NCBI GenBank assembly: GCA_014435945.1
Contig: GCA_014435945.1_4088.1
Length of the DNA stretch: 64,000 bases
Reading direction: 5' to 3' (one strand)
Origin: a phage
This document shows, piece after piece, positions 81-39,408 of the stretch (positions are counted from its first letter, which is position 1; each line of letters begins with the position of its first letter). The notes beneath the pieces are model-generated. The model made no database searches. It worked only from the letters and a program-made list of their open reading frames with translations, and was not told where the DNA came from. The position numbers were made by a program, and so were the translations under genes.

Positions 81-689
81 GTGGTACGATTATGTAAAGA
101 AATCATCCAATCTATTATTATTATTTTCTTAATTAACTTTCCTGCAAGTGCAGGTGTTGAAAGAAAAAGTATCATTAGATATGATGAATCTAAACAGACA
201 GTTCAGTTCATTTCAACTTTAACTGAAAATTCTGTAAACCGTTTGATGGTTTTTAGAGAAACACACCCATTTGACACTATCATCATTACGTCACCGGGTG
301 GTGATTTTGATGCGGGAGTGGCACTAGGAAATTTTGTCAATGATAACAATTTAACAATTATTGTTGAAAGATATTGTAATTCTTCTTGCACTATCGCATT
401 CTTTAGTGCTAATATAGAAAACAGATACATGATGAAGGACTCAATTCTAGGTCTACATAATGTGTCAATCGAAAGTAAAGCACGAAATAGTGATGACACA
501 TACATAACAGTTCGCCAAATGACTATTTTTGCTGAACAGCTATCAACTAAGGTTGGTGTTCTATTTGCGTTATATGCAGCGAATGGTATTCCTCCAGAAT
601 TGTTAGTGGAGGTTAGTAAGGTTCGTGGTAATGAAGTTGTGAGACTTACACCAGATCAGTTGCTCGAATTAGGTAGTATCATTCATTAG
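81..689 (+). CDS. secreted ClpP/crotonase-fold protease-like protein
   Basis: GTG start 8 nt after AAGAGGG; hydrophobic N-terminal signal-like segment; TSPGGDFD motif reminiscent of ClpP-family peptidases. Confidence 0.35.
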   Translation: MVRLCKEIIQSIIIIFLINFPASAGVERKSIIRYDESKQTVQFISTLTENSVNRLMVFRETHPFDTIIITSPGGDFDAGVALGNFVNDNNLTIIVERYCNSSCTIAFFSANIENRYMMKDSILGLHNVSIESKARNSDDTYITVRQMTIFAEQLSTKVGVLFALYAANGIPPELLVEVSKVRGNEVVRLTPDQLLELGSIIH

Positions 690-781
690 TATTAGATACA
701 AAATAATAATATTATAATAAGAGGATGATAAAGTGGTACATCCTTTGTTATAAGTTCACATACACTAGGAGTGTATAAACT

Positions 782-1042
782 ATGACAAATTTACAAAACT
801 TAACATCTCTTGTTTTTTATGCAACAACTATTGTATATTGCATTACATTAGTTTTAACATGTTTCATCTATAAAGACTACAAACGTGGTTTTATGGATTC
901 CAGTACACACAAATTTGCATCCAAGTTCGAAGCAGGAATTTACTATGTTCTATCAATTTCTTATGGAGCATGTTTACTTACACTAGGGTTGCTGATATAC
1001 TGGTTGTATACGGCACTTTTTGCACAAGGAGTTATTTCATGA
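782..1042 (+). CDS. small membrane protein (hypothetical)
   Basis: ATG ORF with two long hydrophobic segments. Confidence 0.4.
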   Translation: MTNLQNLTSLVFYATTIVYCITLVLTCFIYKDYKRGFMDSSTHKFASKFEAGIYYVLSISYGACLLTLGLLIYWLYTALFAQGVIS

Positions 1043-1632
1043 CTTGTATTATCGCTCACACAAATGGCACATCTTCCTTCATCGCTGGTGATAAATTAGG
1101 AAGCAATGGTTTCACTAAAGCAGTTCAAACTGAGCCTAAAGTGTTTGAGAAAGAGTTCATTAAACTCAATGAGGATGGTCTTACTCGCACTAAAGAAGTA
1201 ATGGCGTTAGGGTATACTACATCGTTCCGCATGGGTCAGTTGTTGAATTACAACCTAACTCTACCAGAACAAGTTGCAGGGGAAACCTTTTCACAGTATC
1301 TAGTACTGAAAGTTATTCCTATCATTCGTCAAATGTTTAAAGATGAATGGGGTGCTCGTGATGCATCACAAGATGTTGGTGGTGGTCAGTTCATTATTCT
1401 TCATAATCATACGATTTATGAAGTTCAAGAAGACTTTTCAGTACTGCAACCTAAAACACAAATTACTGCTGTCGGAAGTGGGACTTATCATGCAATTGCA
1501 TCCATGTCAGCGTATATTGAAGTTCAAGAAGAAACCAATGTTCAGTTACATGAACGTGTTGAGTCTATTTTCAAAATTGTTAGTGATAATGTAACAAGTG
1601 TTAGTCCAGAGTTTGATATTTTGAAATACTGA
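1039..1632 (+). CDS. HslV/proteasome-beta-like Ntn-hydrolase peptidase
   Basis: ATG 8 nt after AAGGAG; N-terminus MTCIIAHTNG..FIAGD parallels HslV MTTIVSVRRNG..VIAGD (Thr at position 2); internal AVGSG motif. Confidence 0.45.
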   Translation: MTCIIAHTNGTSSFIAGDKLGSNGFTKAVQTEPKVFEKEFIKLNEDGLTRTKEVMALGYTTSFRMGQLLNYNLTLPEQVAGETFSQYLVLKVIPIIRQMFKDEWGARDASQDVGGGQFIILHNHTIYEVQEDFSVLQPKTQITAVGSGTYHAIASMSAYIEVQEETNVQLHERVESIFKIVSDNVTSVSPEFDILKY

Positions 1633-1864: not shown

Positions 1865-2617
1865 GTGATATCAGATAAATTTATACAAAATGCTGGGAAC
1901 AAAAGATTACTTATAATTTCAGGGGCAGGTCTTTCAGTTGAGAGCGGGATGGAACCATTCCGCTTTGATGATGGGTTGTGGGACAATTTCAAAATTAATG
2001 ATGTTTGTAACATTGCACGACTTAGTTCTAAGTATCATGTAGTTCATTCATTTTATAATACATTGCGTGTAAAATTAGGTGAATGTCATCCTAATGAAAT
2101 GCATTACTTTATTAAATCATTAGAAGATTTGTATGGTGATTGTTTTTTACACATGACTTCTAATATGGATGATCTATATACTAGAATTGGTGGAACCGAA
2201 CTCAAACTACACGGAAATTTATGTGAAGTAATTGAGAACTTTTCTATTAATACTGATGATTACAATGTCATTAATTGTGGTTATGAACCATATATTCCTA
2301 AAGCTGATGTTTTTGCAAAACCAAATGTAGTGATGATTGGTGAGTATCATCGCTACGTTGATGGGGTACGTCTCCCCATTTATGAAGAACGAAATGAAGT
2401 GTTGAAAAGTCTCACAGAAAATGATACAGTTGTAGTTATTGGAAGTAGTGATACAGTACTGGTATGGTCCAGACTAGCTGGTGCACTTCCATGCTATAGT
2501 GTAAATGTTAACATCCGAAAAAATGATAATGATTTTCTTTTTAATGAGAAGGTCATCAAACCTGCGACGAAAGCAATTCCACAGGTTGAAACTATAATTA
2601 AGGAACGAATGCGATGA
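1865..2617 (+). CDS. Sir2-family NAD-dependent deacylase/ADP-ribosyltransferase-like protein
   Basis: Sirtuin motifs GAGLSVESG, HPNEMH, NMDDL..LHG, VVMIGE, VIGSSDTV; GTG start 6 nt after AAGGAG. Confidence 0.7.
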   Translation: MISDKFIQNAGNKRLLIISGAGLSVESGMEPFRFDDGLWDNFKINDVCNIARLSSKYHVVHSFYNTLRVKLGECHPNEMHYFIKSLEDLYGDCFLHMTSNMDDLYTRIGGTELKLHGNLCEVIENFSINTDDYNVINCGYEPYIPKADVFAKPNVVMIGEYHRYVDGVRLPIYEERNEVLKSLTENDTVVVIGSSDTVLVWSRLAGALPCYSVNVNIRKNDNDFLFNEKVIKPATKAIPQVETIIKERMR

Positions 2618-3165
2618 GTAAAGCGGAAGTACCACTGGGGCAAATGGGGAAACGTGCAAATTTTGTATTCTGTTTCTTTTATGCAAAAGAATGTACCCCA
2701 TACGCTGGTTATGAACTAAATGATATCCCAGTGGTTAACTTAGTACTCCTACAAGTGCGTTGGGATGGATTGTTGGGTGCATGTGGTGGAACAGTTGAAA
2801 GTACTGATAAGTCATTAGAAGATGCGTTACAGCGTGAAGTTCAAGAAGAAATGAACTATATCATTGACAAAAGTCGCCTGTCTCCATTAAAATCACTTGA
2901 ATTGTTTCCAGAGGGTCACTCACATAGCTATAGTTATGAAATGACTTATGCTGAACTTAAAAAACTTCGTGATAATTATGCATATGGCAAACATGCTAGT
3001 GCAGAGGTGGCTGGTGTAAATTTATGTCACATCTCTCGTTATTCGAAGGGACAAAATCGAGAAGCAGGATATAATAATCTTATGACACAGAACTTCATCG
3101 GAACTGCGAAACAAGAATTAGAGTATCTTGTACAAAAAGAAAACTTACTAATCAGCTATCTATAG
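2614..3165 (+). CDS. Nudix hydrolase
   Basis: Nudix box GGTVESTDKSLEDALQREVQEEMNY (one-residue insertion relative to consensus); start overlaps upstream stop (ATGA). Confidence 0.6.
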   Translation: MSKAEVPLGQMGKRANFVFCFFYAKECTPYAGYELNDIPVVNLVLLQVRWDGLLGACGGTVESTDKSLEDALQREVQEEMNYIIDKSRLSPLKSLELFPEGHSHSYSYEMTYAELKKLRDNYAYGKHASAEVAGVNLCHISRYSKGQNREAGYNNLMTQNFIGTAKQELEYLVQKENLLISYL

Positions 3166-3174
3166 GAGTTTAAA

Positions 3175-3495
3175 ATGTCGTACTCAATGTTCTTGGATGA
3201 TATTCGTGATTATCAAAAATATTATCCTGACCAAGAGATGGTATTGTGTCGTGACTACGAAAGTGCATGTGAATACGTAATCAAAAATGGAATTCCAGCA
3301 TTTGTCTCATTTGACCATGACTTGGGTGACTTGAGTACAGATGAGAAAACGGGATACACTTTTGCCAAATTTCTAATTGATTATATGTTTGAGCATAATA
3401 TTAAAGAACCATTTAAATACTATGTACATAGTAGTAATCCAGTAGGGAAAGTTAATATTGAAACTTACTTAACTAATGGATTTAATGCACTATGA
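3175..3495 (+). CDS. hypothetical protein (possible receiver-like fold)
   Basis: ATG after GGAG; LDDIRD ... FDHDLG pattern loosely reminiscent of a receiver domain; no firm assignment. Confidence 0.45.
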   Translation: MSYSMFLDDIRDYQKYYPDQEMVLCRDYESACEYVIKNGIPAFVSFDHDLGDLSTDEKTGYTFAKFLIDYMFEHNIKEPFKYYVHSSNPVGKVNIETYLTNGFNAL

Positions 3496-21354: not shown

Positions 21355-21756
21355 ATGACTACAATCGATGATATCTACAGTACTATACGCAATATGAGTA
21401 CAGATAGAAAAGTCTTTGGTGACAAAGAAAAGTCCAAATGTTATGGCATCGATTCTTTTGATATTATTTCATACGAATATAATAACAATGGGACAAGTTC
21501 ACTAAACATTGTGTGTCCACGAGATCCAGAAAATAATTTCATGTACGTTGAAATTAACAATGATGGTATGTTCTTTACTAAAGTATATAAAGGTGGGAAA
21601 GAATACGAACCCATCGAAGTAATGAATGAAGAGAAATTCTTCCAAGAAGATACCATCATCAATCTTGGATTTAGTTACAATGACTATCAAGTACTGGATC
21701 ATGATTTTAAACGATACTATAATGGTTTTCTAAAGGAGTTAACGATTTACTTATGA
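21355..21756 (+). CDS. hypothetical protein
   Basis: 133-aa ORF. Confidence 0.45.
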   Translation: MTTIDDIYSTIRNMSTDRKVFGDKEKSKCYGIDSFDIISYEYNNNGTSSLNIVCPRDPENNFMYVEINNDGMFFTKVYKGGKEYEPIEVMNEEKFFQEDTIINLGFSYNDYQVLDHDFKRYYNGFLKELTIYL

Positions 21757-22991
21757 AAAACAATTTTCTAGAACAAACTATTGTGAAACACTTAGCTGGT
21801 TCACAGGCGTATGGCACAAGCACACCAGAAAGTGATACAGATTATCGTGGTATCTTCCTTGCAAACAAAGAATATATCCTAACTCCTTTTTTTAATGTTA
21901 AGGAAGTTTCAGATACTTCTGAAGAAGATACTAAATTTTATGAAATCAATCAGTACTTAAGTCTGTATACTGAAGCTAACCCAAACATTCTTGAATCACT
22001 ATGGGTTAAACCGGAACACATCGTAGAAAGTACTGAAATCTATGACTATCTACGCTCATTCAATCAGCAATTATTGAGTTCAAAGATTGCACATTCATAC
22101 AGTGGTTATGCATACAATCAGGTTAAGCGTATGTCTAATCACCACGGCTGGCTCGATAAGGAACGAATTGCTGAACGTAAACTAAATGAAATTTTAGAAG
22201 AACATCCAGTTGACGAAGTACTTTCATGGATGTATGATACATTCCCGCAGTATTTGGTAGACCGTTTGAATAAATCCAATCTTCACCCATTCAATGCTAC
22301 AAAAATTGATTTTGAAAAATACATGCGTGATACTTCATTACAATTAGTTTCAACACAAGCATTGAAACAATATCATTTTGTACGTTTAGTACATAATTAT
22401 AGTACTGACAAAGTATTAGATCGTGATTTCAATTTATTGAATTACAATTCAGGGTATGAACTAATCCATTACGGTGAAAACATCTTTGGGGTAATTATCA
22501 ACCCGAATGAAAGTACAGTGAATGCTGATGGTTCACTACGTTACTTCAACAAAGAACGTACTACAGAAGAATTGAAAGTTCGTCCTGAACTCATTGTAAA
22601 ATTCAATGAAAAGGAATACAAAGAAAATAGTGAGAACCGTAAGAGTTATCACAAATGGAAGCAGAATCGTAATGCCAAACGTGCTATTCTTGAATCACAC
22701 CACGGTTATGACTGCAAACATGCTATGCATACAATCAGGCTGCTGAATACAGCACAGGAAGCACTTGAAACTGGTATCATCCAAGTTCACCGACCGGATG
22801 CTGCTATGTTGATGGACATTCGTAACGGGAAGTGGTTGTATCAAGAAGTTATGGATTATTTCAACGAAAAGGTTGACTACATCCGAAATGTGGCGTATCA
22901 TAAGACCCATCTACCGAAGCGACCAAACATAAAGTTGGCTACGAAGGTACTATTAGATATCCGTGAAATGCAATGGTACAGTAAAAAATAA
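21753..22991 (+). CDS. Pol-beta-superfamily nucleotidyltransferase (possibly PF10127-like)
   Basis: N-terminal GSQAYGTSTPESDTDYRGIF (GS ... [DE]xD NTase motif). Confidence 0.45.
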   Translation: MKNNFLEQTIVKHLAGSQAYGTSTPESDTDYRGIFLANKEYILTPFFNVKEVSDTSEEDTKFYEINQYLSLYTEANPNILESLWVKPEHIVESTEIYDYLRSFNQQLLSSKIAHSYSGYAYNQVKRMSNHHGWLDKERIAERKLNEILEEHPVDEVLSWMYDTFPQYLVDRLNKSNLHPFNATKIDFEKYMRDTSLQLVSTQALKQYHFVRLVHNYSTDKVLDRDFNLLNYNSGYELIHYGENIFGVIINPNESTVNADGSLRYFNKERTTEELKVRPELIVKFNEKEYKENSENRKSYHKWKQNRNAKRAILESHHGYDCKHAMHTIRLLNTAQEALETGIIQVHRPDAAMLMDIRNGKWLYQEVMDYFNEKVDYIRNVAYHKTHLPKRPNIKLATKVLLDIREMQWYSKK

Positions 22992-32045: not shown

Positions 32046-32456
32046 ATGATTGAAATGGAAGGAACTCTGGTGTATGATCCAGATCGTGGCACTATGAAAA
32101 AGAAGAAGGACTTCTGGTTAGTACTGCAACTTCCATTACAGTTGGTTCGATACTACCAGTACTTCATCAGAACTGACTTACATATTGATATCAAAGACCC
32201 ACAATGGGGAGCACATGTCAGTATCGTTCGTGGTGAAGTGCCACCAAATCCAGAGTACTGGAAAAAGTACGATGGTATGAAAGTTAAGATTAAGTTCGAA
32301 CCTTTCATCGAAGAAGTAAAAGACAATAAGAAACCTGGGTCATTCTTTATCATAGAGTTTGAAGATGATTTCATTGCACAAATTCGTGATGAACTTGGTT
32401 TAGCATCTAAATATTTCAAATATCACATCACCATTGGTAGAACATACTACGATTAA
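32046..32456 (+). CDS. 2H-phosphoesterase-superfamily protein (LigT-like)
   Basis: Two H-x-[ST]-x motifs about 90 residues apart: GAHVSIVRGE and KYHITIGR. Confidence 0.5.
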   Translation: MIEMEGTLVYDPDRGTMKKKKDFWLVLQLPLQLVRYYQYFIRTDLHIDIKDPQWGAHVSIVRGEVPPNPEYWKKYDGMKVKIKFEPFIEEVKDNKKPGSFFIIEFEDDFIAQIRDELGLASKYFKYHITIGRTYYD

Positions 32457-33599: not shown

Positions 33600-34232
33600 A
33601 TGATATATAATGTTGGTATAAATGATGTACCAGGTGATTCTAAATCGGATAGTGATGGTTATTATATATATGTGAAATGGAAAAGTATGATTAAACGATG
33701 CTACTCAGTTGAATATCAAAAAATACATCATTCATATATTGGAACAACTGTATGTAATGAATGGCTTACATATTCAAATTTTAAAGATTGGTATCTAAAT
33801 AATTACATAGACGGGTATGTTTTAGATAAAGACTTGATATCGGGTGATTTACAAGTATACTCACCAGTGACATGTTCATTTGTACCACAAGAATTAAATT
33901 GTTCTATTCTTGAAAGTAATAGTGCTAAAACAAAACTACCATTGGGTGTGTCATATCAACAGAAAACTAAAAATATGATAAATGAACGTTCGAAACCATA
34001 TGATTCATATATAAAAATGTATGGTAAGTTGTATCGTCTTGGTAGTTATGAATGTCCTGAACTTGCACATAAAGAATGGCAAATCGCCAAGAAAAAATAT
34101 CTCGAAGAACTCATTGACAGATATAAAAATTCTGTTAAAATGGAAGTCATAGAAGGTATTCAGAAACGAATTGATATATTACATAATGATATAGTCAATA
34201 ACGGTGTTACAATCACAATCAATAAGATATAA
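33600..34232 (+). CDS. putative homing-endonuclease-associated DNA-binding protein
   Basis: WKSMIKRCYS ... YIGTTVCNEWLTYSNFKDW pattern recalled from phage proteins annotated HNH/AP2; tentative. Confidence 0.35.
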   Translation: MIYNVGINDVPGDSKSDSDGYYIYVKWKSMIKRCYSVEYQKIHHSYIGTTVCNEWLTYSNFKDWYLNNYIDGYVLDKDLISGDLQVYSPVTCSFVPQELNCSILESNSAKTKLPLGVSYQQKTKNMINERSKPYDSYIKMYGKLYRLGSYECPELAHKEWQIAKKKYLEELIDRYKNSVKMEVIEGIQKRIDILHNDIVNNGVTITINKI

Positions 34233-34244
34233 GGTAGGTAAATT

Positions 34245-34577
34245 ATGCTAGATTTAGTTATCCAAGGTAATGTTGATATTACTCCAGCAATCAATTACGC
34301 GATTCATGCAGAAGCAAATGCACTAACGAAGTTTAGTGATTCTTCAGTACTTTATATCGGTGTTCATGTGAAGAAAGAGCATAAGTCTCAATACTCTGTG
34401 ACTCTAACATCAGGTAGTAAATCAGTTACTGCCGATGCAGCAGATTTATACAAGGCGATTGCTGATTCATTTGAAAAAATGGAAACTGTATTCAGTAAAG
34501 ACAAAAGCATTAAATTGCACCGCCGAAACCATCCAGAACATCCAGTTCAAGAAGACTTGACTGACAACGAAGAGTAA
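34245..34577 (+). CDS. hypothetical protein
   Basis: 110-aa ORF. Confidence 0.5.
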   Translation: MLDLVIQGNVDITPAINYAIHAEANALTKFSDSSVLYIGVHVKKEHKSQYSVTLTSGSKSVTADAADLYKAIADSFEKMETVFSKDKSIKLHRRNHPEHPVQEDLTDNEE

Positions 34578-35758: not shown

Positions 35759-36874
35759 ATGAAAAAGTATTTGGTTGGTGGCTACGTTCGTGACCGTTTA
35801 ATGGGCATCCGTGCAAAAGACAAAGATTATGTTATTGTTGGTGCTACCGAATCCGATATTAAGTACTTGCAAAGTATTGGATACAAGCAAGTAGGTAAGG
35901 ATTTCCCTGTATATCTAAGTCCAGAAGGTAATGAACACGCATTAGCCCGTACTGAGCGTAAAACTGGTACTGGATATGGTGGCTTCGAAGTGAATACAAA
36001 AGGTGTGACACTAGAACAAGATCTATATCGTCGTGATCTCACAATCAATAGTATTGCATATGATCCAGTACTCCAGATTCACATCGACCCTTATGGCGGG
36101 AAAGCTGATATCAAGAACAAAGTACTTCGTCATGTATCAGAACACTTTAAAGAAGATCCATTGCGTGTTCTACGTTTGGCCCGTTTCGCTACGCGTTACT
36201 CCGACTTTACAATCCATGATGATACTATGACAATGTGTAAAGATATGGTTAGTACTGGTGAACTAGACCATCTAGTCCCAGAACGTGTATTTGTTGAATT
36301 CGAAAAAGCACTTTCTGAAGAAAACCCTTCCAAGTTTATCAAAACTCTGGTACAATTTGGTTATTACGAAAAGGCATTTACTACAGTTCCAGTTACCAAG
36401 AAACGTCTGGAATTAATTGATGCTATCGCTGCAAATTGTACAGAAGAATATAAACCATATTTCTTATGGACAGTACTTCTTGAAAATGAAGAAGTAAATA
36501 ATGATTCAGTACTTAACGGTTCCATTAAGGTTCCAGTTAAGTACGTGAAGTTTAGTAATTACATCAAGCGTTTCCGTGAAGATATTAAAACCTTCCGTAA
36601 GAAGACCCCAGTTGAAATGGGGCAAATCTTACTGGATATGAATATCAAAAACAATGGTGGTGAAGATTTCCTTTACAAAGTACTGGAAAACTTCATTTTG
36701 AACAAAGAAATTGATTCTGAACTTGAAGATTTGATTATTAAAGTTTATGATCGTTATACTGATGTTGAATTACCTGATATTCAGCAGTTAGTGAAAGATG
36801 GTGAACTCCAAACATCGGAGATTCGTGATTTTGTTGCTGAATTGCGTATTGAAGCAATCAAGCAAATGTTCTAA
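35759..36874 (+). CDS. cca: tRNA nucleotidyltransferase (CCA-adding enzyme)
   Basis: Head-domain motifs GGYVRDRLMG, DxD, RRDLTINSIAYD, ERKTGTGYGGF. Confidence 0.85.
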   Translation: MKKYLVGGYVRDRLMGIRAKDKDYVIVGATESDIKYLQSIGYKQVGKDFPVYLSPEGNEHALARTERKTGTGYGGFEVNTKGVTLEQDLYRRDLTINSIAYDPVLQIHIDPYGGKADIKNKVLRHVSEHFKEDPLRVLRLARFATRYSDFTIHDDTMTMCKDMVSTGELDHLVPERVFVEFEKALSEENPSKFIKTLVQFGYYEKAFTTVPVTKKRLELIDAIAANCTEEYKPYFLWTVLLENEEVNNDSVLNGSIKVPVKYVKFSNYIKRFREDIKTFRKKTPVEMGQILLDMNIKNNGGEDFLYKVLENFILNKEIDSELEDLIIKVYDRYTDVELPDIQQLVKDGELQTSEIRDFVAELRIEAIKQMF

Positions 36875-36949: not shown

Positions 36950-37394
36950 ATGCGTTATAGCTGTGGTATAATATTTTATCGTGATGGTCAGATACTTATC
37001 GGGCATACAACACGGACAGAATCACTGGGACTTACCTAAAGGTAAAACTGAAGGTACAGAAACATTTAAAGAGGCTGCTGTACGTGAATGCTACGAAGAG
37101 ACAGGATATGAAATCGATGAAGATGATCTTCTGTTTCTTGGTGATGTATCGTATAGAAAGGGGAAACGTTTAGTTTTATTTTTCTATACAGCCAAAGATA
37201 AGCCTATACCAGAAGAGTTGGTGTGTAAAAGTACTTACACAAACAGATATGGTAGAAGTCACCCAGAATTGGATAAGTTCATGTACATTGATGTACTAGA
37301 TTGTCAAAAGTATTTGACTGAACGAATGTGTAACAGTATAATAAAGGCTGTTACAATGTTTCAACGAAATAAAGGGAAAAGAAATGAAAGTTAA
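36950..37394 (+). pseudogene. Nudix hydrolase with apparent +1 frameshift near codon 25
   Basis: Frame A (ATG 36950) encodes Nudix-like N-terminus GIIFYRDGQILIGHTTR then stops at 37037; frame B (+1) encodes LPKGKTEGTETFKEAAVRECYEETGY (perfect Nudix box) to 37394. Confidence 0.55.
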
Positions 37395-38162: not shown

Positions 38163-38173
38163 AATATAAATTA

Positions 38174-38203
38174 AGGACTCTGATTACAGAGTCCTTTCTT
38201 TTC
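38174..38203 (+). terminator. intrinsic terminator
   Basis: AGGACTCTG-atta-CAGAGTCCT followed by TTCTTTTC then GGAG. Confidence 0.75.
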
Positions 38204-38213
38204 GGAGAATATA

Positions 38214-38690
38214 ATGATACATGAACACCTAGGTAATTTGTTTGAATTGTTCAACTCTGTTACTGATGATCAAACCGCGTTGCATATAATCGCTCATGGT
38301 TGTAATGCACAGGGTAAGATGGGTTCGGGTTTTGCAAAAGAACTAAGAAATCGTTACCCGATGGCATATGATGATTATAAAGCATATGAAAAGGAAATGG
38401 GATTTCTAAGAACAGGACAAATTTCATATTCTTCTATAAGTGATGATTTGCTTATCGCAAACTGCATTACCCAACAGTACTATGGTAATGACGGTTCTAA
38501 GTATGTAAGTTATGATGCAATCGATGATGTTTTCAAACAACTAAATTACTTATGTAACGTTGAACGCACTGTTCATGTACACTTCCCGAAAATTGGAGCC
38601 GATTTAGGCGGTGGTAACTGGAACGTTATCAAAGAAATCATTGACCACAGACTGGTTAATGCAGAAAAACACTTATACATTCTAAAATAA
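38214..38690 (+). CDS. macro-domain protein (ADP-ribose binding/processing)
   Basis: ALHIIAHGCNAQGKMGSGFA resembles the macro-domain motif [IV]xHxxNCQGxMGAGIA. Confidence 0.55.
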   Translation: MIHEHLGNLFELFNSVTDDQTALHIIAHGCNAQGKMGSGFAKELRNRYPMAYDDYKAYEKEMGFLRTGQISYSSISDDLLIANCITQQYYGNDGSKYVSYDAIDDVFKQLNYLCNVERTVHVHFPKIGADLGGGNWNVIKEIIDHRLVNAEKHLYILK

Positions 38691-38709
38691 ACAAAAGGAC
38701 TTGACAAAA

Positions 38710-39018
38710 ATGACTATGACCGTTAAACTACTAAACATCAACAGCGTTGGCCCAGTACTAGCAATTCTACAAAATGATGCACCAGAAGCAGTAGTAGTTA
38801 ACTACCCAGCCCAGCTAGGTACTGACGAACAAGGTGAAATCATTCTACGTGATTACCTAGAATTCATTAGTTCTGAAAAAGGCGTTATTTTTTATAAATC
38901 CAACATCATTAGCATCAGCGATGCAAACCCTGCACTAGTTGAAGCTTATGTTGAAGCAATCAAGGCTATCGAAGAAAAACCAGCACTGATTGTTCCTGAT
39001 AACAAAATCATTCTATAA
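38710..39018 (+). CDS. hypothetical protein
   Basis: ATG after AAAAGGA (ORF track gave TTG at 38701). Confidence 0.45.
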   Translation: MTMTVKLLNINSVGPVLAILQNDAPEAVVVNYPAQLGTDEQGEIILRDYLEFISSEKGVIFYKSNIISISDANPALVEAYVEAIKAIEEKPALIVPDNKIIL

Positions 39019-39030
39019 TAGAGGTATCTA

Positions 39031-39408
39031 ATGGCTGCTCAAAACGTTAAAGTTAAAACTATCCAAGCTATCGTAGTACTGAAAGATTCTACTCCATCAC
39101 CAAAAGAACTGGTTATGGCTGGTATGACAATGCTACATCAGTACAATCCAGAATCACCTAACTATGTACTGGAATACGAAGCGAAGCAGTTTAAAGAACA
39201 TTGGCAGTCATGGATTAAAGATAATGAAATGGAACAGGTTGTTTATGCTGCTGATGACATTTTCGAATTAGAACAAATCGAATATCTAGCAGGACAACAA
39301 TCTGTACCATTGAGTATCTTCGGTAATGGAGAAGAAGTTTTAGTACTGGGACCATTTACCGCTGATGCCATCATGCATTTACTAAGTAATTGTAAAAAAG
39401 TTGGCTAA
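39031..39408 (+). CDS. hypothetical protein
   Basis: ATG after AGAGG; 125 aa. Confidence 0.5.
   Translation: MAAQNVKVKTIQAIVVLKDSTPSPKELVMAGMTMLHQYNPESPNYVLEYEAKQFKEHWQSWIKDNEMEQVVYAADDIFELEQIEYLAGQQSVPLSIFGNGEEVLVLGPFTADAIMHLLSNCKKVG

What the first reader, a model, noticed from the sequence alone, without database searches (positions are those of the whole stretch)
38214..38690. Free-standing macro-domain protein
The motif HIIAHGCNAQGKMGSGFA resembles the ADP-ribose-binding loop of macro domains of the TARG1/DarG type. Macro domains remove or read ADP-ribose marks (established knowledge). Together with the Sir2, Nudix and 2H genes this points to a coordinated ADP-ribose-related function (inference).
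Basis: partly seen in the sequence, partly recalled or inferred. Interest (0 to 1): 0.45.

Follow-up and report, generated by a model that had tools for sequence, protein, structure and literature searches.

The report
Phage macro domain, likely anti-DarTG2
This is a real, stand-alone macro-domain (ADP-ribose-removing) gene of a jumbo E. coli phage; public records already label it as such, and it most likely strips ADP-ribose from phage DNA to defeat the bacterial DarTG2 defence, so it is an ordinary member of a known family.

Summary
The ORF at 38214..38690 (+, 158 aa) and its motif exist as described. The window is an Asteriusvirus jumbo coliphage, 99.7% identical to vB_Ec-M-J. The orthologue in 121Q (gp544) is already annotated "macro domain-containing protein".

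The macro fold is confirmed. The AlphaFold2 model has pLDDT 94.6.

It lacks the TARG1 Lys/Asp dyad and the DarG Lys. It has Gln87, invariant in 265 homologues, plus His28 and Asn31. That is the SCO6735 active site, and SCO6735 removes ADP-ribose from thymidine in DNA. T4 Tk.4 shares this site and the same PHROG 335 (BLASTP 4e-12). Tk.4 was recently named AdfM, an orphan macro domain needed to resist DarTG2.

The most likely function is therefore an AdfM-type counter-defence enzyme. This is untested for this phage.

The "coordinated Sir2/Nudix/2H module" idea is not supported. Sir2-Nudix-cREC is a separate tight block 35 kb away. The 2H candidate scores below threshold and lies 6 kb away. A terminator-like hairpin separates the macro gene from the nearby Nudix gene. 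Homologues in other phages have unrelated neighbours.

Interest is low.

The parts
38214..38690 (+). Macro-domain CDS (158 aa plus stop). Orthologue of 121Q gp544 and vB_Ec-M-J EcMJ_276. Member of PHROG 335, which also holds T4 Tk.4/AdfM and PhiKZ gp104/AdfM.
38283..38336 (+). Residues 24-41, HIIAHGCNAQGKMGSGFA. This is strand beta-2 plus the first ADP-ribose-binding loop. It contains His28 and Asn31 (equivalent to SCO6735 His24 and Asn27, and PhiKZ AdfM Asn23) and the G-x-G motif (Gly37-Ser38-Gly39).
   Evidence: Invariant or near-invariant in 265 homologues. The roles of the equivalent residues are described in PMC9411070 and PMC13309987.
38472..38474 (+). Codon for Gln87, at the position of catalytic Lys84 of TARG1 and Lys80 of DarG. 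It is equivalent to the essential Gln85 of SCO6735 and to the Gln of T4 Tk.4 ('YTQ').
   Evidence: Q in 265 of 265 aligned homologues and in T4 Tk.4, BT1257 and SCO6735; K in TARG1. SCO6735 Q85A is inactive (PMC9411070).
38586..38621 (+). Residues 125-136, PKIGADLGGGNW: the second, glycine-rich phosphate-binding loop. Gly132 occupies the position of TARG1 Asp125.
38173..38203 (+). Terminator-like hairpin (a 10-bp stem AAGGACTCTG / CAGAGTCCTT with loop ATTA) followed by TCTTTTC. It ends 10 nt before the macro start codon and separates the gene from the upstream Nudix-glutaredoxin block. The GGAG ribosome-binding site follows at 38204-38207.
   Evidence: The stem is conserved in 121Q while the loop has changed (ATTA to ACCA). 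It is absent in XaC1, where the ORFs overlap.

Best explanation
The gene encodes a stand-alone, catalytically competent macro domain of the ALC1-like class, Gln-type subgroup (SCO6735 / BT1257 / T4 Tk.4). It most likely acts as an 'orphan antitoxin' of the AdfM type.

Proposed mechanism: during infection the enzyme binds ADP-ribose attached to the N3 of thymine in single-stranded phage DNA. This modification is placed by the host DarT2 toxin of DarTG2 defence systems at TNTC motifs. The enzyme hydrolyses the N-glycosidic link, releasing free ADP-ribose and restoring a replicable and packageable template. Gln87, positioned by Asn31, would orient the distal ribose, as proposed for SCO6735 Gln85 and Asn27. 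His28 and the two glycine-rich loops would hold the ADP-ribose.

Shown here: the fold, the class, the active-site residues, homology to T4 Tk.4, and purifying selection.
Inferred: the substrate (T-ADPr DNA) and the biological role (anti-DarTG2).
For: - Fold: AlphaFold2 pLDDT 94.6, pTM 0.91. Foldseek against the PDB ranks 2FG1/2AFC (BT1257), 5E3B (SCO6735), Poa1p, DarG and TARG1 at the top, with TM 0.69-0.82.
- Sequence: phmmer gives BT1257 8e-16 and SCO6735 2e-11. The family profile gives 2e-26 and 1e-19, DarG 8e-13 and TARG1 3e-10.
- Defence libraries: the only NCBIfam and PADLOC hits are to the macro half of DarG. T4 AdfM scores about the same against PADLOC DarG (36 bits against 39.5).
- Homology to a genetically validated anti-DarTG2 factor: T4 Tk.4 gives BLASTP 4e-12 (29% identity over 120 aa), hhalign probability 99.5% and the same PHROG 335. 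The top hit in the viral structure library is a tk.4 protein. A tk.4 knockout sensitises T4 to DarTG2 (bioRxiv 10.1101/2025.11.20.689424).
- A second AdfM, PhiKZ gp104, de-ADP-ribosylates DarT2-modified DNA in vitro (PMC13309987). It is a remote homologue (hhalign 98%) in the same PHROG.
- Active site: H28, N31 and Q87 match SCO6735 H24, N27 and Q85. These residues are invariant or near-invariant across 265 homologues, and Q87 is invariant. SCO6735 removes T-linked ADPr from DNA and rescues DarT toxicity, and its Q85A and N27S mutants lose activity (PMC9411070).
- Selection: dN/dS is 0.11 against 121Q.
- The host is E. coli, where DarTG2 restricts phages.
Against: - No experiment exists for this protein or for any Asteriusvirus.
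- Identity to T4 Tk.4 is only about 29% and to PhiKZ AdfM about 21%. Macro domains of one class can differ in substrate: SCO6735 also acts on Glu-linked protein ADPr and on U-ADPr RNA.
- The SCO6735 DNA-contact lysines K34 and K89 are not conserved (S38 and G91). T4 Tk.4 also has Ser at the first of these positions.
- The gene sits among tRNA and translation-related genes: a CCA-adding enzyme, HPF and a PTH2-like ORF. It lies directly upstream of the neck and tail genes. It is not in an obvious early anti-defence cluster, and its expression timing is unknown.
Confidence: 0.58

Rival explanations
1. Small-molecule ADP-ribose clean-up. The macro domain would dephosphorylate ADP-ribose-1''-phosphate (like Poa1p) or deacylate O-acyl-ADP-ribose (the OARD1 activity). 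These compounds would be produced by the phage's own Sir2-Nudix-cREC (+2H) NAD-dependent RNA-repair genes, and a Nudix enzyme would then split the ADP-ribose. This is the first reader's 'coordinated' idea made specific, and it is the origin of the database label 'phosphatase'.
For: - Poa1p is in the same class and is matched at 1.7e-6 by single sequence, 5e-14 by profile and TM 0.69.
- The window does encode Sir2, a Nudt16-like Nudix and cREC, a sub-threshold 2H-SAK-like ORF and an RlaP gene, and a second Nudix 0.8 kb upstream.
Against: - The Sir2 block is 35 kb away. The published description of this sirtuin neighbourhood notes that it is not coupled to an adjacent macro gene.
- A terminator-like hairpin lies between the near Nudix block and the macro gene.
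- Homologues in T4-like, Felix-O1-like, rV5-like, Barba and Bacillus phages have no Sir2, Nudix or 2H neighbours. T4 has Tk.4 but no annotated Sir2 in that region.
- Poa1p Ser30 is not conserved (Lys35 here), and Poa1p has Ser where this family has its invariant Gln.
Confidence: 0.14
2. RNA de-ADP-ribosylation. The enzyme would remove ADP-ribose from uracil or other positions in tRNA, mRNA or rRNA modified by host RNA-targeting ADP-ribosyltransferase toxins. It would form part of a tRNA and translation maintenance gene set.
For: - SCO6735, the closest characterised enzyme, efficiently reverses U-ADPr on ssRNA (PMC13036486).
- The order lysozyme, HPF, CCA-adding enzyme, Nudix, glutaredoxin, macro, PTH2-like, neck is kept in the distant jumbo phage XaC1, whose macro protein is 45% identical.
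Against: - Synteny across this jumbo lineage is general, so it is not evidence of functional linkage.
- No bacterial uracil-ADP-ribosylating defence toxin is named in the papers read here.
- The only in vivo phenotypes for phage members of PHROG 335 concern DNA and DarTG2.
- This reading is not mutually exclusive with the best explanation.
Confidence: 0.12
3. Protein de-ADP-ribosylation. The enzyme would reverse Glu/Asp-linked mono-ADP-ribosylation of host or phage proteins, for example marks from host ART defences or from phage-encoded Alt/Mod-like enzymes.
For: SCO6735 and TARG1 remove Glu-linked ADPr from PARP1 E988Q (PMC9411070).
Against: No ART gene was found among the roughly 45 window ORFs screened. 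The TARG1 Lys/Asp dyad used for ester cleavage is absent. DarG-type enzymes act on DNA only.
Confidence: 0.08
4. A non-catalytic ADP-ribose reader or sponge that binds ADPr-derived signals without hydrolysing them.
For: Some macro domains only bind their ligand. Pfam Macro scores just below its threshold.
Against: All residues shown to be needed for SCO6735 catalysis (His, Asn, Gln, Gly loop) are invariant under strong purifying selection.
Confidence: 0.03

Closest known systems
T4 Tk.4 = AdfM (anti-DarT factor macrodomain), bioRxiv 10.1101/2025.11.20.689424
   Same: A phage-encoded, free-standing macro domain of about 155 aa from an E. coli myophage. It is in the same PHROG 335. It shares the AHGCN...MGSG...TQ...P(K/R)IGA.(L/I)G.GNW active-site pattern, including Gln at the catalytic position. 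BLASTP 4e-12, hhalign 99.5%.
   Different: Only about 29% identity. The genomic setting differs (between vs and tk in an early region of T4). Function has been demonstrated genetically for T4 only.
Streptomyces coelicolor SCO6735 (PDB 5E3B) and Bacteroides BT1257 (PDB 2FG1/2AFC)
   Same: These are the best solved-structure matches by both sequence and fold. They share the His/Asn/Gln catalytic set. SCO6735 is a thymidine-ADPr DNA glycohydrolase that neutralises DarT.
   Different: They are cellular proteins. SCO6735 Val25, Lys34 and Lys89 correspond to Gly29, Ser38 and Gly91 here, and the mobile loop differs.
PhiKZ gp104 = AdfM (PMC13309987)
   Same: A stand-alone phage macro domain in PHROG 335 with the conserved catalytic Asn (N23, equivalent to N31). 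It removes DarT2-made ADPr from DNA.
   Different: About 21% identity. It retains the DarG-like Lys ('FPTKDNW') instead of Gln, and it is imported into a phage nucleus, which Asteriusviruses are not known to build.
DarG (DarTG2 antitoxin; PDB 5M31, 5M3E, 5M3I)
   Same: Same macro class. It gives the only NCBIfam and PADLOC hit.
   Different: The window protein has no C-terminal DarT-binding domain, no adjacent darT gene and no catalytic Lys80. It scores 33 bits against a 250-bit equivalog cutoff.
Human TARG1/OARD1 (PDB 4J5S)
   Same: Same ALC1-like fold (TM 0.76). TARG1 also cleaves T-ADPr DNA and U-ADPr RNA.
   Different: The Lys84/Asp125 dyad is replaced by Gln87/Gly132.
Yeast Poa1p (PDB 6LFQ-6LFU), ADP-ribose-1''-phosphate phosphatase
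   Same: Same class, with His23 equivalent to His28. It is the source of the 'phosphatase' and 'Appr-1-p processing' labels.
   Different: The match is weaker (TM 0.69). Ser30 is not conserved, and Poa1p has Ser at the Gln87 position.

Membership tests
Macro domain superfamily (Pfam PF01661) | Three-layer alpha/beta/alpha macro fold | tested here: met
   The AF2 model has pLDDT 94.6. 224 PDB matches at E<=1e-3; all 50 matches listed are macro domains.
Macro domain superfamily (Pfam PF01661) | Profile match above the curated threshold | tested here: inconclusive
   The window protein scores 20.4 bits against a gathering cutoff of 22. Many homologues at 40-68% identity carry a precomputed PF01661 hit, and the family profile hits solved macro domains at 2e-26.
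Macro domain superfamily (Pfam PF01661) | ADP-ribose-binding loops (N...GxG after beta-2; a Gly-rich loop after beta-5) | tested here: met
   N31, G37-S38-G39, G128 and G132-G134 are conserved in 265 homologues.
ALC1-like class, Gln-type subgroup (SCO6735/BT1257) | Gln at the position of TARG1 Lys84 / DarG Lys80, with the His24 and Asn27 equivalents | tested here: met
   Q87, H28 and N31. Q is present in 265 of 265 homologues. The roles are described in PMC9411070.
ALC1-like class, Gln-type subgroup (SCO6735/BT1257) | The SCO6735 DNA-contact lysines Lys34 and Lys89, and Val25 | tested here: not met
   S38, G91 and G29 at the aligned positions. T4 Tk.4 also has Ser and Gly at two of these. The Val25 role is backbone-mediated, so the side chain may not matter.
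AdfM (phage anti-DarT factor macrodomain) | A phage-encoded, single-domain macro protein homologous to T4 Tk.4 / PhiKZ gp104 | tested here: met
   BLASTP 4e-12, hhalign 99.5%, same PHROG 335; PhiKZ, 98%; top BFVD hit is tk.4.
AdfM (phage anti-DarT factor macrodomain) | Removes ADP-ribose from DarT2-modified ssDNA | not testable with these tools
   Needs an enzyme assay.
AdfM (phage anti-DarT factor macrodomain) | Required or sufficient for phage growth on DarTG2 hosts | not testable with these tools
   Needs plaque assays or a knockout.
DarG antitoxin (NCBIfam NF048014) | Equivalog score cutoff | tested here: not met
   33.2 bits against 250, and only the macro half of the model is matched (positions 20-139 of 338).
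DarG antitoxin (NCBIfam NF048014) | C-terminal DarT-binding domain and an adjacent darT gene | tested here: not met
   The protein is 158 aa and is all macro domain. The flanking ORFs have no Pfam hit.
DarG antitoxin (NCBIfam NF048014) | Catalytic Lys80 | tested here: not met
   Gln87 occupies that position.
TARG1/OARD1 | Lys84/Asp125 catalytic dyad | tested here: not met
   Gln87 and Gly132 at those positions.
Poa1p-type ADPr-1''-phosphate phosphatase | His23 and Ser30, the residues mutated in PDB entries 6LFS (H23A) and 6LFT (S30A) | tested here: inconclusive
   His23 corresponds to His28 and is conserved. Ser30 corresponds to Lys35 and is not (alignment). Activity is not testable.

The most novel reading that the evidence does not exclude
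The Gln-type phage macro domains may not be DNA-specific anti-DarT2 enzymes. In this jumbo-phage lineage they could act on RNA, removing uracil-linked or other ADP-ribose from tRNA or mRNA. They would work alongside the syntenic CCA-adding enzyme, the Nudix gene and the PTH2-like gene as a translation-apparatus repair set, aimed at a still-undescribed RNA-ADP-ribosylating host defence.
Probability: 0.1. Interest if true: 0.55.

Novelty: new member of a known kind. Interest (0 to 1): 0.2.

Why it matters
If this protein is an AdfM, the large Asteriusvirus coliphages, several of which are being characterised for phage therapy, carry a ready-made counter to DarTG2. That would help predict their host range. 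It would also show that the Gln-type (SCO6735-like) catalytic solution, rather than the DarG Lys type, is the one widely used by enterobacterial myophages. It does not open a new question, because the family, the fold and the likely role are all already described.

Tried and rejected
- Pfam alone gave only a sub-threshold Macro hit. This was resolved with profile and structure searches.
- I tested whether the gene immediately downstream (38701-39018) is the YAcAr/SLOG partner seen beside a homologue in a metagenomic phage. There was no similarity (E=0.2). It is only the lineage-specific orthologue of an XaC1 ORF.
- I looked for conserved Sir2, Nudix or 2H neighbours of homologues in XaC1, three metagenomic contigs, Mosigvirus SF, T4, SUSP2, UP17, Barba32A and FADO. 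Only the closely syntenic jumbo lineage keeps the Nudix-glutaredoxin neighbourhood.
- I scanned about 45 window ORFs for ART, KptA, NADAR, SLOG and NAMPT domains. None was found. I did find cREC next to Sir2-Nudix.
- A regular-expression scan for paired HxT/S motifs gave two ORFs. Only 32046-32456 has any 2H profile support, and it scores below threshold.
- Direct orthology to PhiKZ AdfM is rejected: homology is remote and PhiKZ AdfM is Lys-type.
- DarG and TARG1 membership are rejected on their catalytic residues and, for DarG, its domain architecture.
- A TATAAATT (T4-late-promoter-like) sequence just before the hairpin was noticed but not pursued. It is not conserved in 121Q.
- The literature search for Asteriusvirus with DarTG found no experimental test of this gene.

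Full report
**Observation.** The window contains a maximal ORF at 38214..38690 on the + strand (158 aa, ATG start). A GGAG ribosome-binding site lies 6 nt upstream. The quoted motif HIIAHGCNAQGKMGSGFA is residues 24-41. The ORF is a real gene. It is 99% identical to an annotated protein of Escherichia phage vB_Ec-M-J. It has 181 homologues in the indexed search and 17,475 cluster representatives at E<=1e-3 in the exhaustive profile search. dN/dS against the 121Q orthologue is 0.11.

**What genome this is.** Megablast of 36.9-39.5 kb finds 38 phage records. The best are 99-99.7% identical: vB_Ec-M-J, WPEC3, fEgEco12 and others. All are Asteriusvirus jumbo coliphages of the 121Q/PBECO4 group. 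In those records the gene is called "phosphatase", "Appr-1-p processing domain protein" or, in RefSeq 121Q gp544 and in the PBECO4 RefSeq record, "macro domain-containing protein". The bare observation is therefore already in public annotation.

**Is it a macro domain?**
- Pfam Macro alone is marginal: 20.4 bits, E 5e-4, gathering cutoff 22.
- PHROG 335 ("phosphatase") matches at 3e-46.
- phmmer against PDB sequences gives BT1257 (2FG1/2AFC) at 8e-16, SCO6735 (5E3B) at 2e-11, Poa1p at 2e-6 and DarG at 2.5e-3.
- A profile of 43 homologues (A1) raises these to 2e-26, 1e-19, 5e-14 and 8e-13. It also adds TARG1/C6orf130 at 3e-10.
- AlphaFold2 on that alignment gives pLDDT 94.6 and pTM 0.91, with the expected alternating strand and helix order.
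- Foldseek against the PDB ranks BT1257, SCO6735, Poa1p, DarG and TARG1 first (TM 0.69-0.82). Coronavirus, YmdB and macroH2A macro domains follow.

**Which kind of macro domain?** All top matches belong to the ALC1-like class, so "TARG1/DarG type" is right at that level. I aligned 265 fetched homologues with reference sequences. His28, Asn31, Gly39, Gln87, Gly91, Tyr100, Pro125 and Gly128 are essentially invariant.
- Gln87 sits where TARG1 has catalytic Lys84.
- Gly132 sits where TARG1 has Asp125.
- SCO6735, BT1257 and T4 Tk.4 all share His, Asn and Gln at these positions.

Hlousek-Kasun et al. (PMC9411070) showed that SCO6735 lacks the TARG1 and DarG catalytic residues. They also showed that Gln85 (Q85A) and Asn27 (N27S) are required for activity. 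SCO6735 removes thymidine-linked ADP-ribose from DNA faster than DarG or TARG1, and it protects cells from DarT. The window protein has that active site. It does not have SCO6735's DNA-contact lysines (Ser38 and Gly91 here). It is not a DarG: NCBIfam DarG scores 33 bits against a 250-bit cutoff, and only the macro half of the model is matched. PADLOC DarG scores 39.5 bits. The protein has no C-terminal DarT-binding domain, and no darT gene lies next to it.

**Link to characterised phage proteins.** Two recent studies independently named phage macro domains AdfM.
- PhiKZ gp104 removes DarT2-made ADP-ribose from DNA in vitro and rescues DarT2 toxicity. The same study reports that chimalliviruses need AdfM to resist DarTG2 (PMC13309987).
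- T4 tk.4 was the single significant hit in a transposon screen on a DarTG2 host, and a clean knockout sensitises T4 to DarTG2 (bioRxiv 10.1101/2025.11.20.689424).

I fetched T4 tk.4. It matches the window protein at BLASTP 4e-12 (29% identity over 120 aa) and matches the family profile at hhalign probability 99.5%. The window protein, Tk.4 and PhiKZ gp104 all fall in PHROG 335. Tk.4 is Gln-type like the window protein ("YTQ"). PhiKZ gp104 is a more remote homologue (hhalign 98%, 21% identity) and keeps the DarG-like Lys. The best match in the viral predicted-structure library is a tk.4 protein of Acinetobacter phage 133. tblastn finds homologues in 1,504 of 50,697 phage records. In T4-like phages these lie in the vs-tk interval.

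**Most likely function.** The protein is most likely an orphan, DarG-like "antitoxin" that hydrolyses ADP-ribose from thymine in phage ssDNA and so defeats DarTG2. The fold, the class, the catalytic residues, the homology and the purifying selection are shown here. The substrate and the role are inferred from SCO6735 and the two AdfM proteins. I put this at about 0.58, because macro domains of this class are promiscuous. SCO6735 also acts on Glu-linked protein ADPr and on U-ADPr RNA (PMC13036486).

**The "coordinated Sir2/Nudix/2H" inference.**
- Sir2 (1865-2617; Pfam SIR2 1e-19), a Nudt16-like Nudix (2614-3165; PF22327 1.5e-18) and a cREC cyclic-phosphate-processing domain (3175-3495; 1.9e-23) form a tight block 35 kb upstream.
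- This block matches the sirtuin-Nudix-cREC(-2H) neighbourhood that Iyer et al. predicted to be an NAD-dependent RNA-end repair system in jumbo phages. They note that in these neighbourhoods the sirtuin is not coupled to an adjacent macro gene (PMC9503650).
- The only 2H candidate (32046-32456, with HVSI...HITI) scores 23.8 bits against 27 for Pfam 2H-SAK, and it lies 6 kb away.
- A second, MutT-like Nudix (36981-37394) and a glutaredoxin gene lie 0.8 kb upstream. Two small ORFs and a strong terminator-like hairpin (38173-38196 plus a T-tract) separate them from the macro gene. The hairpin's stem is conserved in 121Q while its loop has changed.
- The CCA-enzyme, Nudix, glutaredoxin, macro, PTH2-like and neck order is retained in Xanthomonas jumbo phage XaC1. 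That lineage is broadly syntenic, so this is weak evidence of linkage.
- In unrelated phages the neighbours are quite different: NAMPT, HAD-SAK, metallophosphatase and YAcAr in one contig; cpYpsA, HD and Gad2 in another; unannotated small ORFs in SUSP2, UP17 and Barba32A; and a COG3236 (NADAR) gene in Bacillus phage FADO.
- Roughly 45 window ORFs were screened, and no ART, KptA, NADAR, SLOG or NAMPT domain was found.

A metabolic hand-off (Sir2 product to macro to Nudix) cannot be excluded. Nothing in the anatomy points to it, and the published genetics for Tk.4 point elsewhere.

**Verdict.** The macro-domain interpretation is supported, with a refinement: the protein is Gln-type and SCO6735/Tk.4-like, and it is not a TARG1 or DarG orthologue. 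The coordinated-module inference is not supported. This is a new, untested member of a known and recently characterised family, so interest is low (0.2).

Noticed in passing
window 1865-3495 (+): There is a tight three-gene block. Sir2 (Pfam SIR2 1e-19; CobB-like NCBIfam hits, all below cutoff) is followed directly by a Nudt16-like Nudix (PF22327 1.5e-18), with the end of one gene overlapping the start of the next. A cREC cyclic-phosphate-processing receiver domain (PF20274 1.9e-23) comes next. The block matches the sirtuin-centred NAD-dependent RNA-repair neighbourhood predicted for jumbo phages by Iyer et al. 2022 (PMC9503650). That system has not been tested experimentally in the papers read here.
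   Followed up: partly
window 32046-32456 (+): A 136-aa ORF carries two HxT/S motifs (HVSI at residue 57, HITI at 127) and a sub-threshold Pfam 2H-SAK hit (23.8 bits against 27). It falls in PHROG 12204 (unknown function). It could be a small 2H phosphoesterase, either an Acb1-like cyclic-nucleotide degrader or an RNA-end processing enzyme.
   Followed up: partly
window 33600-34232 (+): An HNH endonuclease gene (PHROG 953, 4e-68) lies between the lysozyme and HPF genes. It is absent at that position from the near-identical (99.7% over the compared 2.6 kb) phage vB_Ec-M-J. This looks like a recent homing-endonuclease insertion.
   Followed up: no
window 21753-22991 (+): An RlaP-family RNA-repair-pathway nucleotidyltransferase (PF10127, 4e-17) is annotated only as 'nucleotidyltransferase'. 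With the CCA-adding enzyme (35759-36874) and the HPF homologue (34245-34577), it adds to an RNA and translation maintenance theme in this region.
   Followed up: no
window 39031-39408 (+): A 125-aa ORF two genes downstream of the macro gene is 30% identical to an XaC1 ORF that has a weak PTH2 (peptidyl-tRNA hydrolase) hit. Some records (fEgEco12, Turkey3) annotate it as an aminoacyl- or peptidyl-tRNA hydrolase. It gave no Pfam hit here.
   Followed up: partly
window 81-1632 (+): Two adjacent peptidase-like ORFs: a ClpP-like one (PF00574, 20.6 bits, just above its cutoff) and an HslV-family-like one (PHROG 1040, 2e-23). Both are annotated as hypothetical in the related phage.
   Followed up: no
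window 38163-38203 (+): A TATAAATT sequence resembling the T4 late-promoter box sits immediately before the terminator-like hairpin upstream of the macro gene. The box is not conserved in 121Q, although the hairpin stem is. The transcriptional organisation of this junction is unknown.
   Followed up: partly
L012 (Escherichia phage SUSP2) 2477-3259: In Felix-O1-like phages the homologous macro domain is the N-terminal part of a 260-aa protein with a C-terminal extension of about 100 aa. That extension was not examined here. BFVD also lists tk.4-like proteins of 230-260 aa.
   Followed up: no
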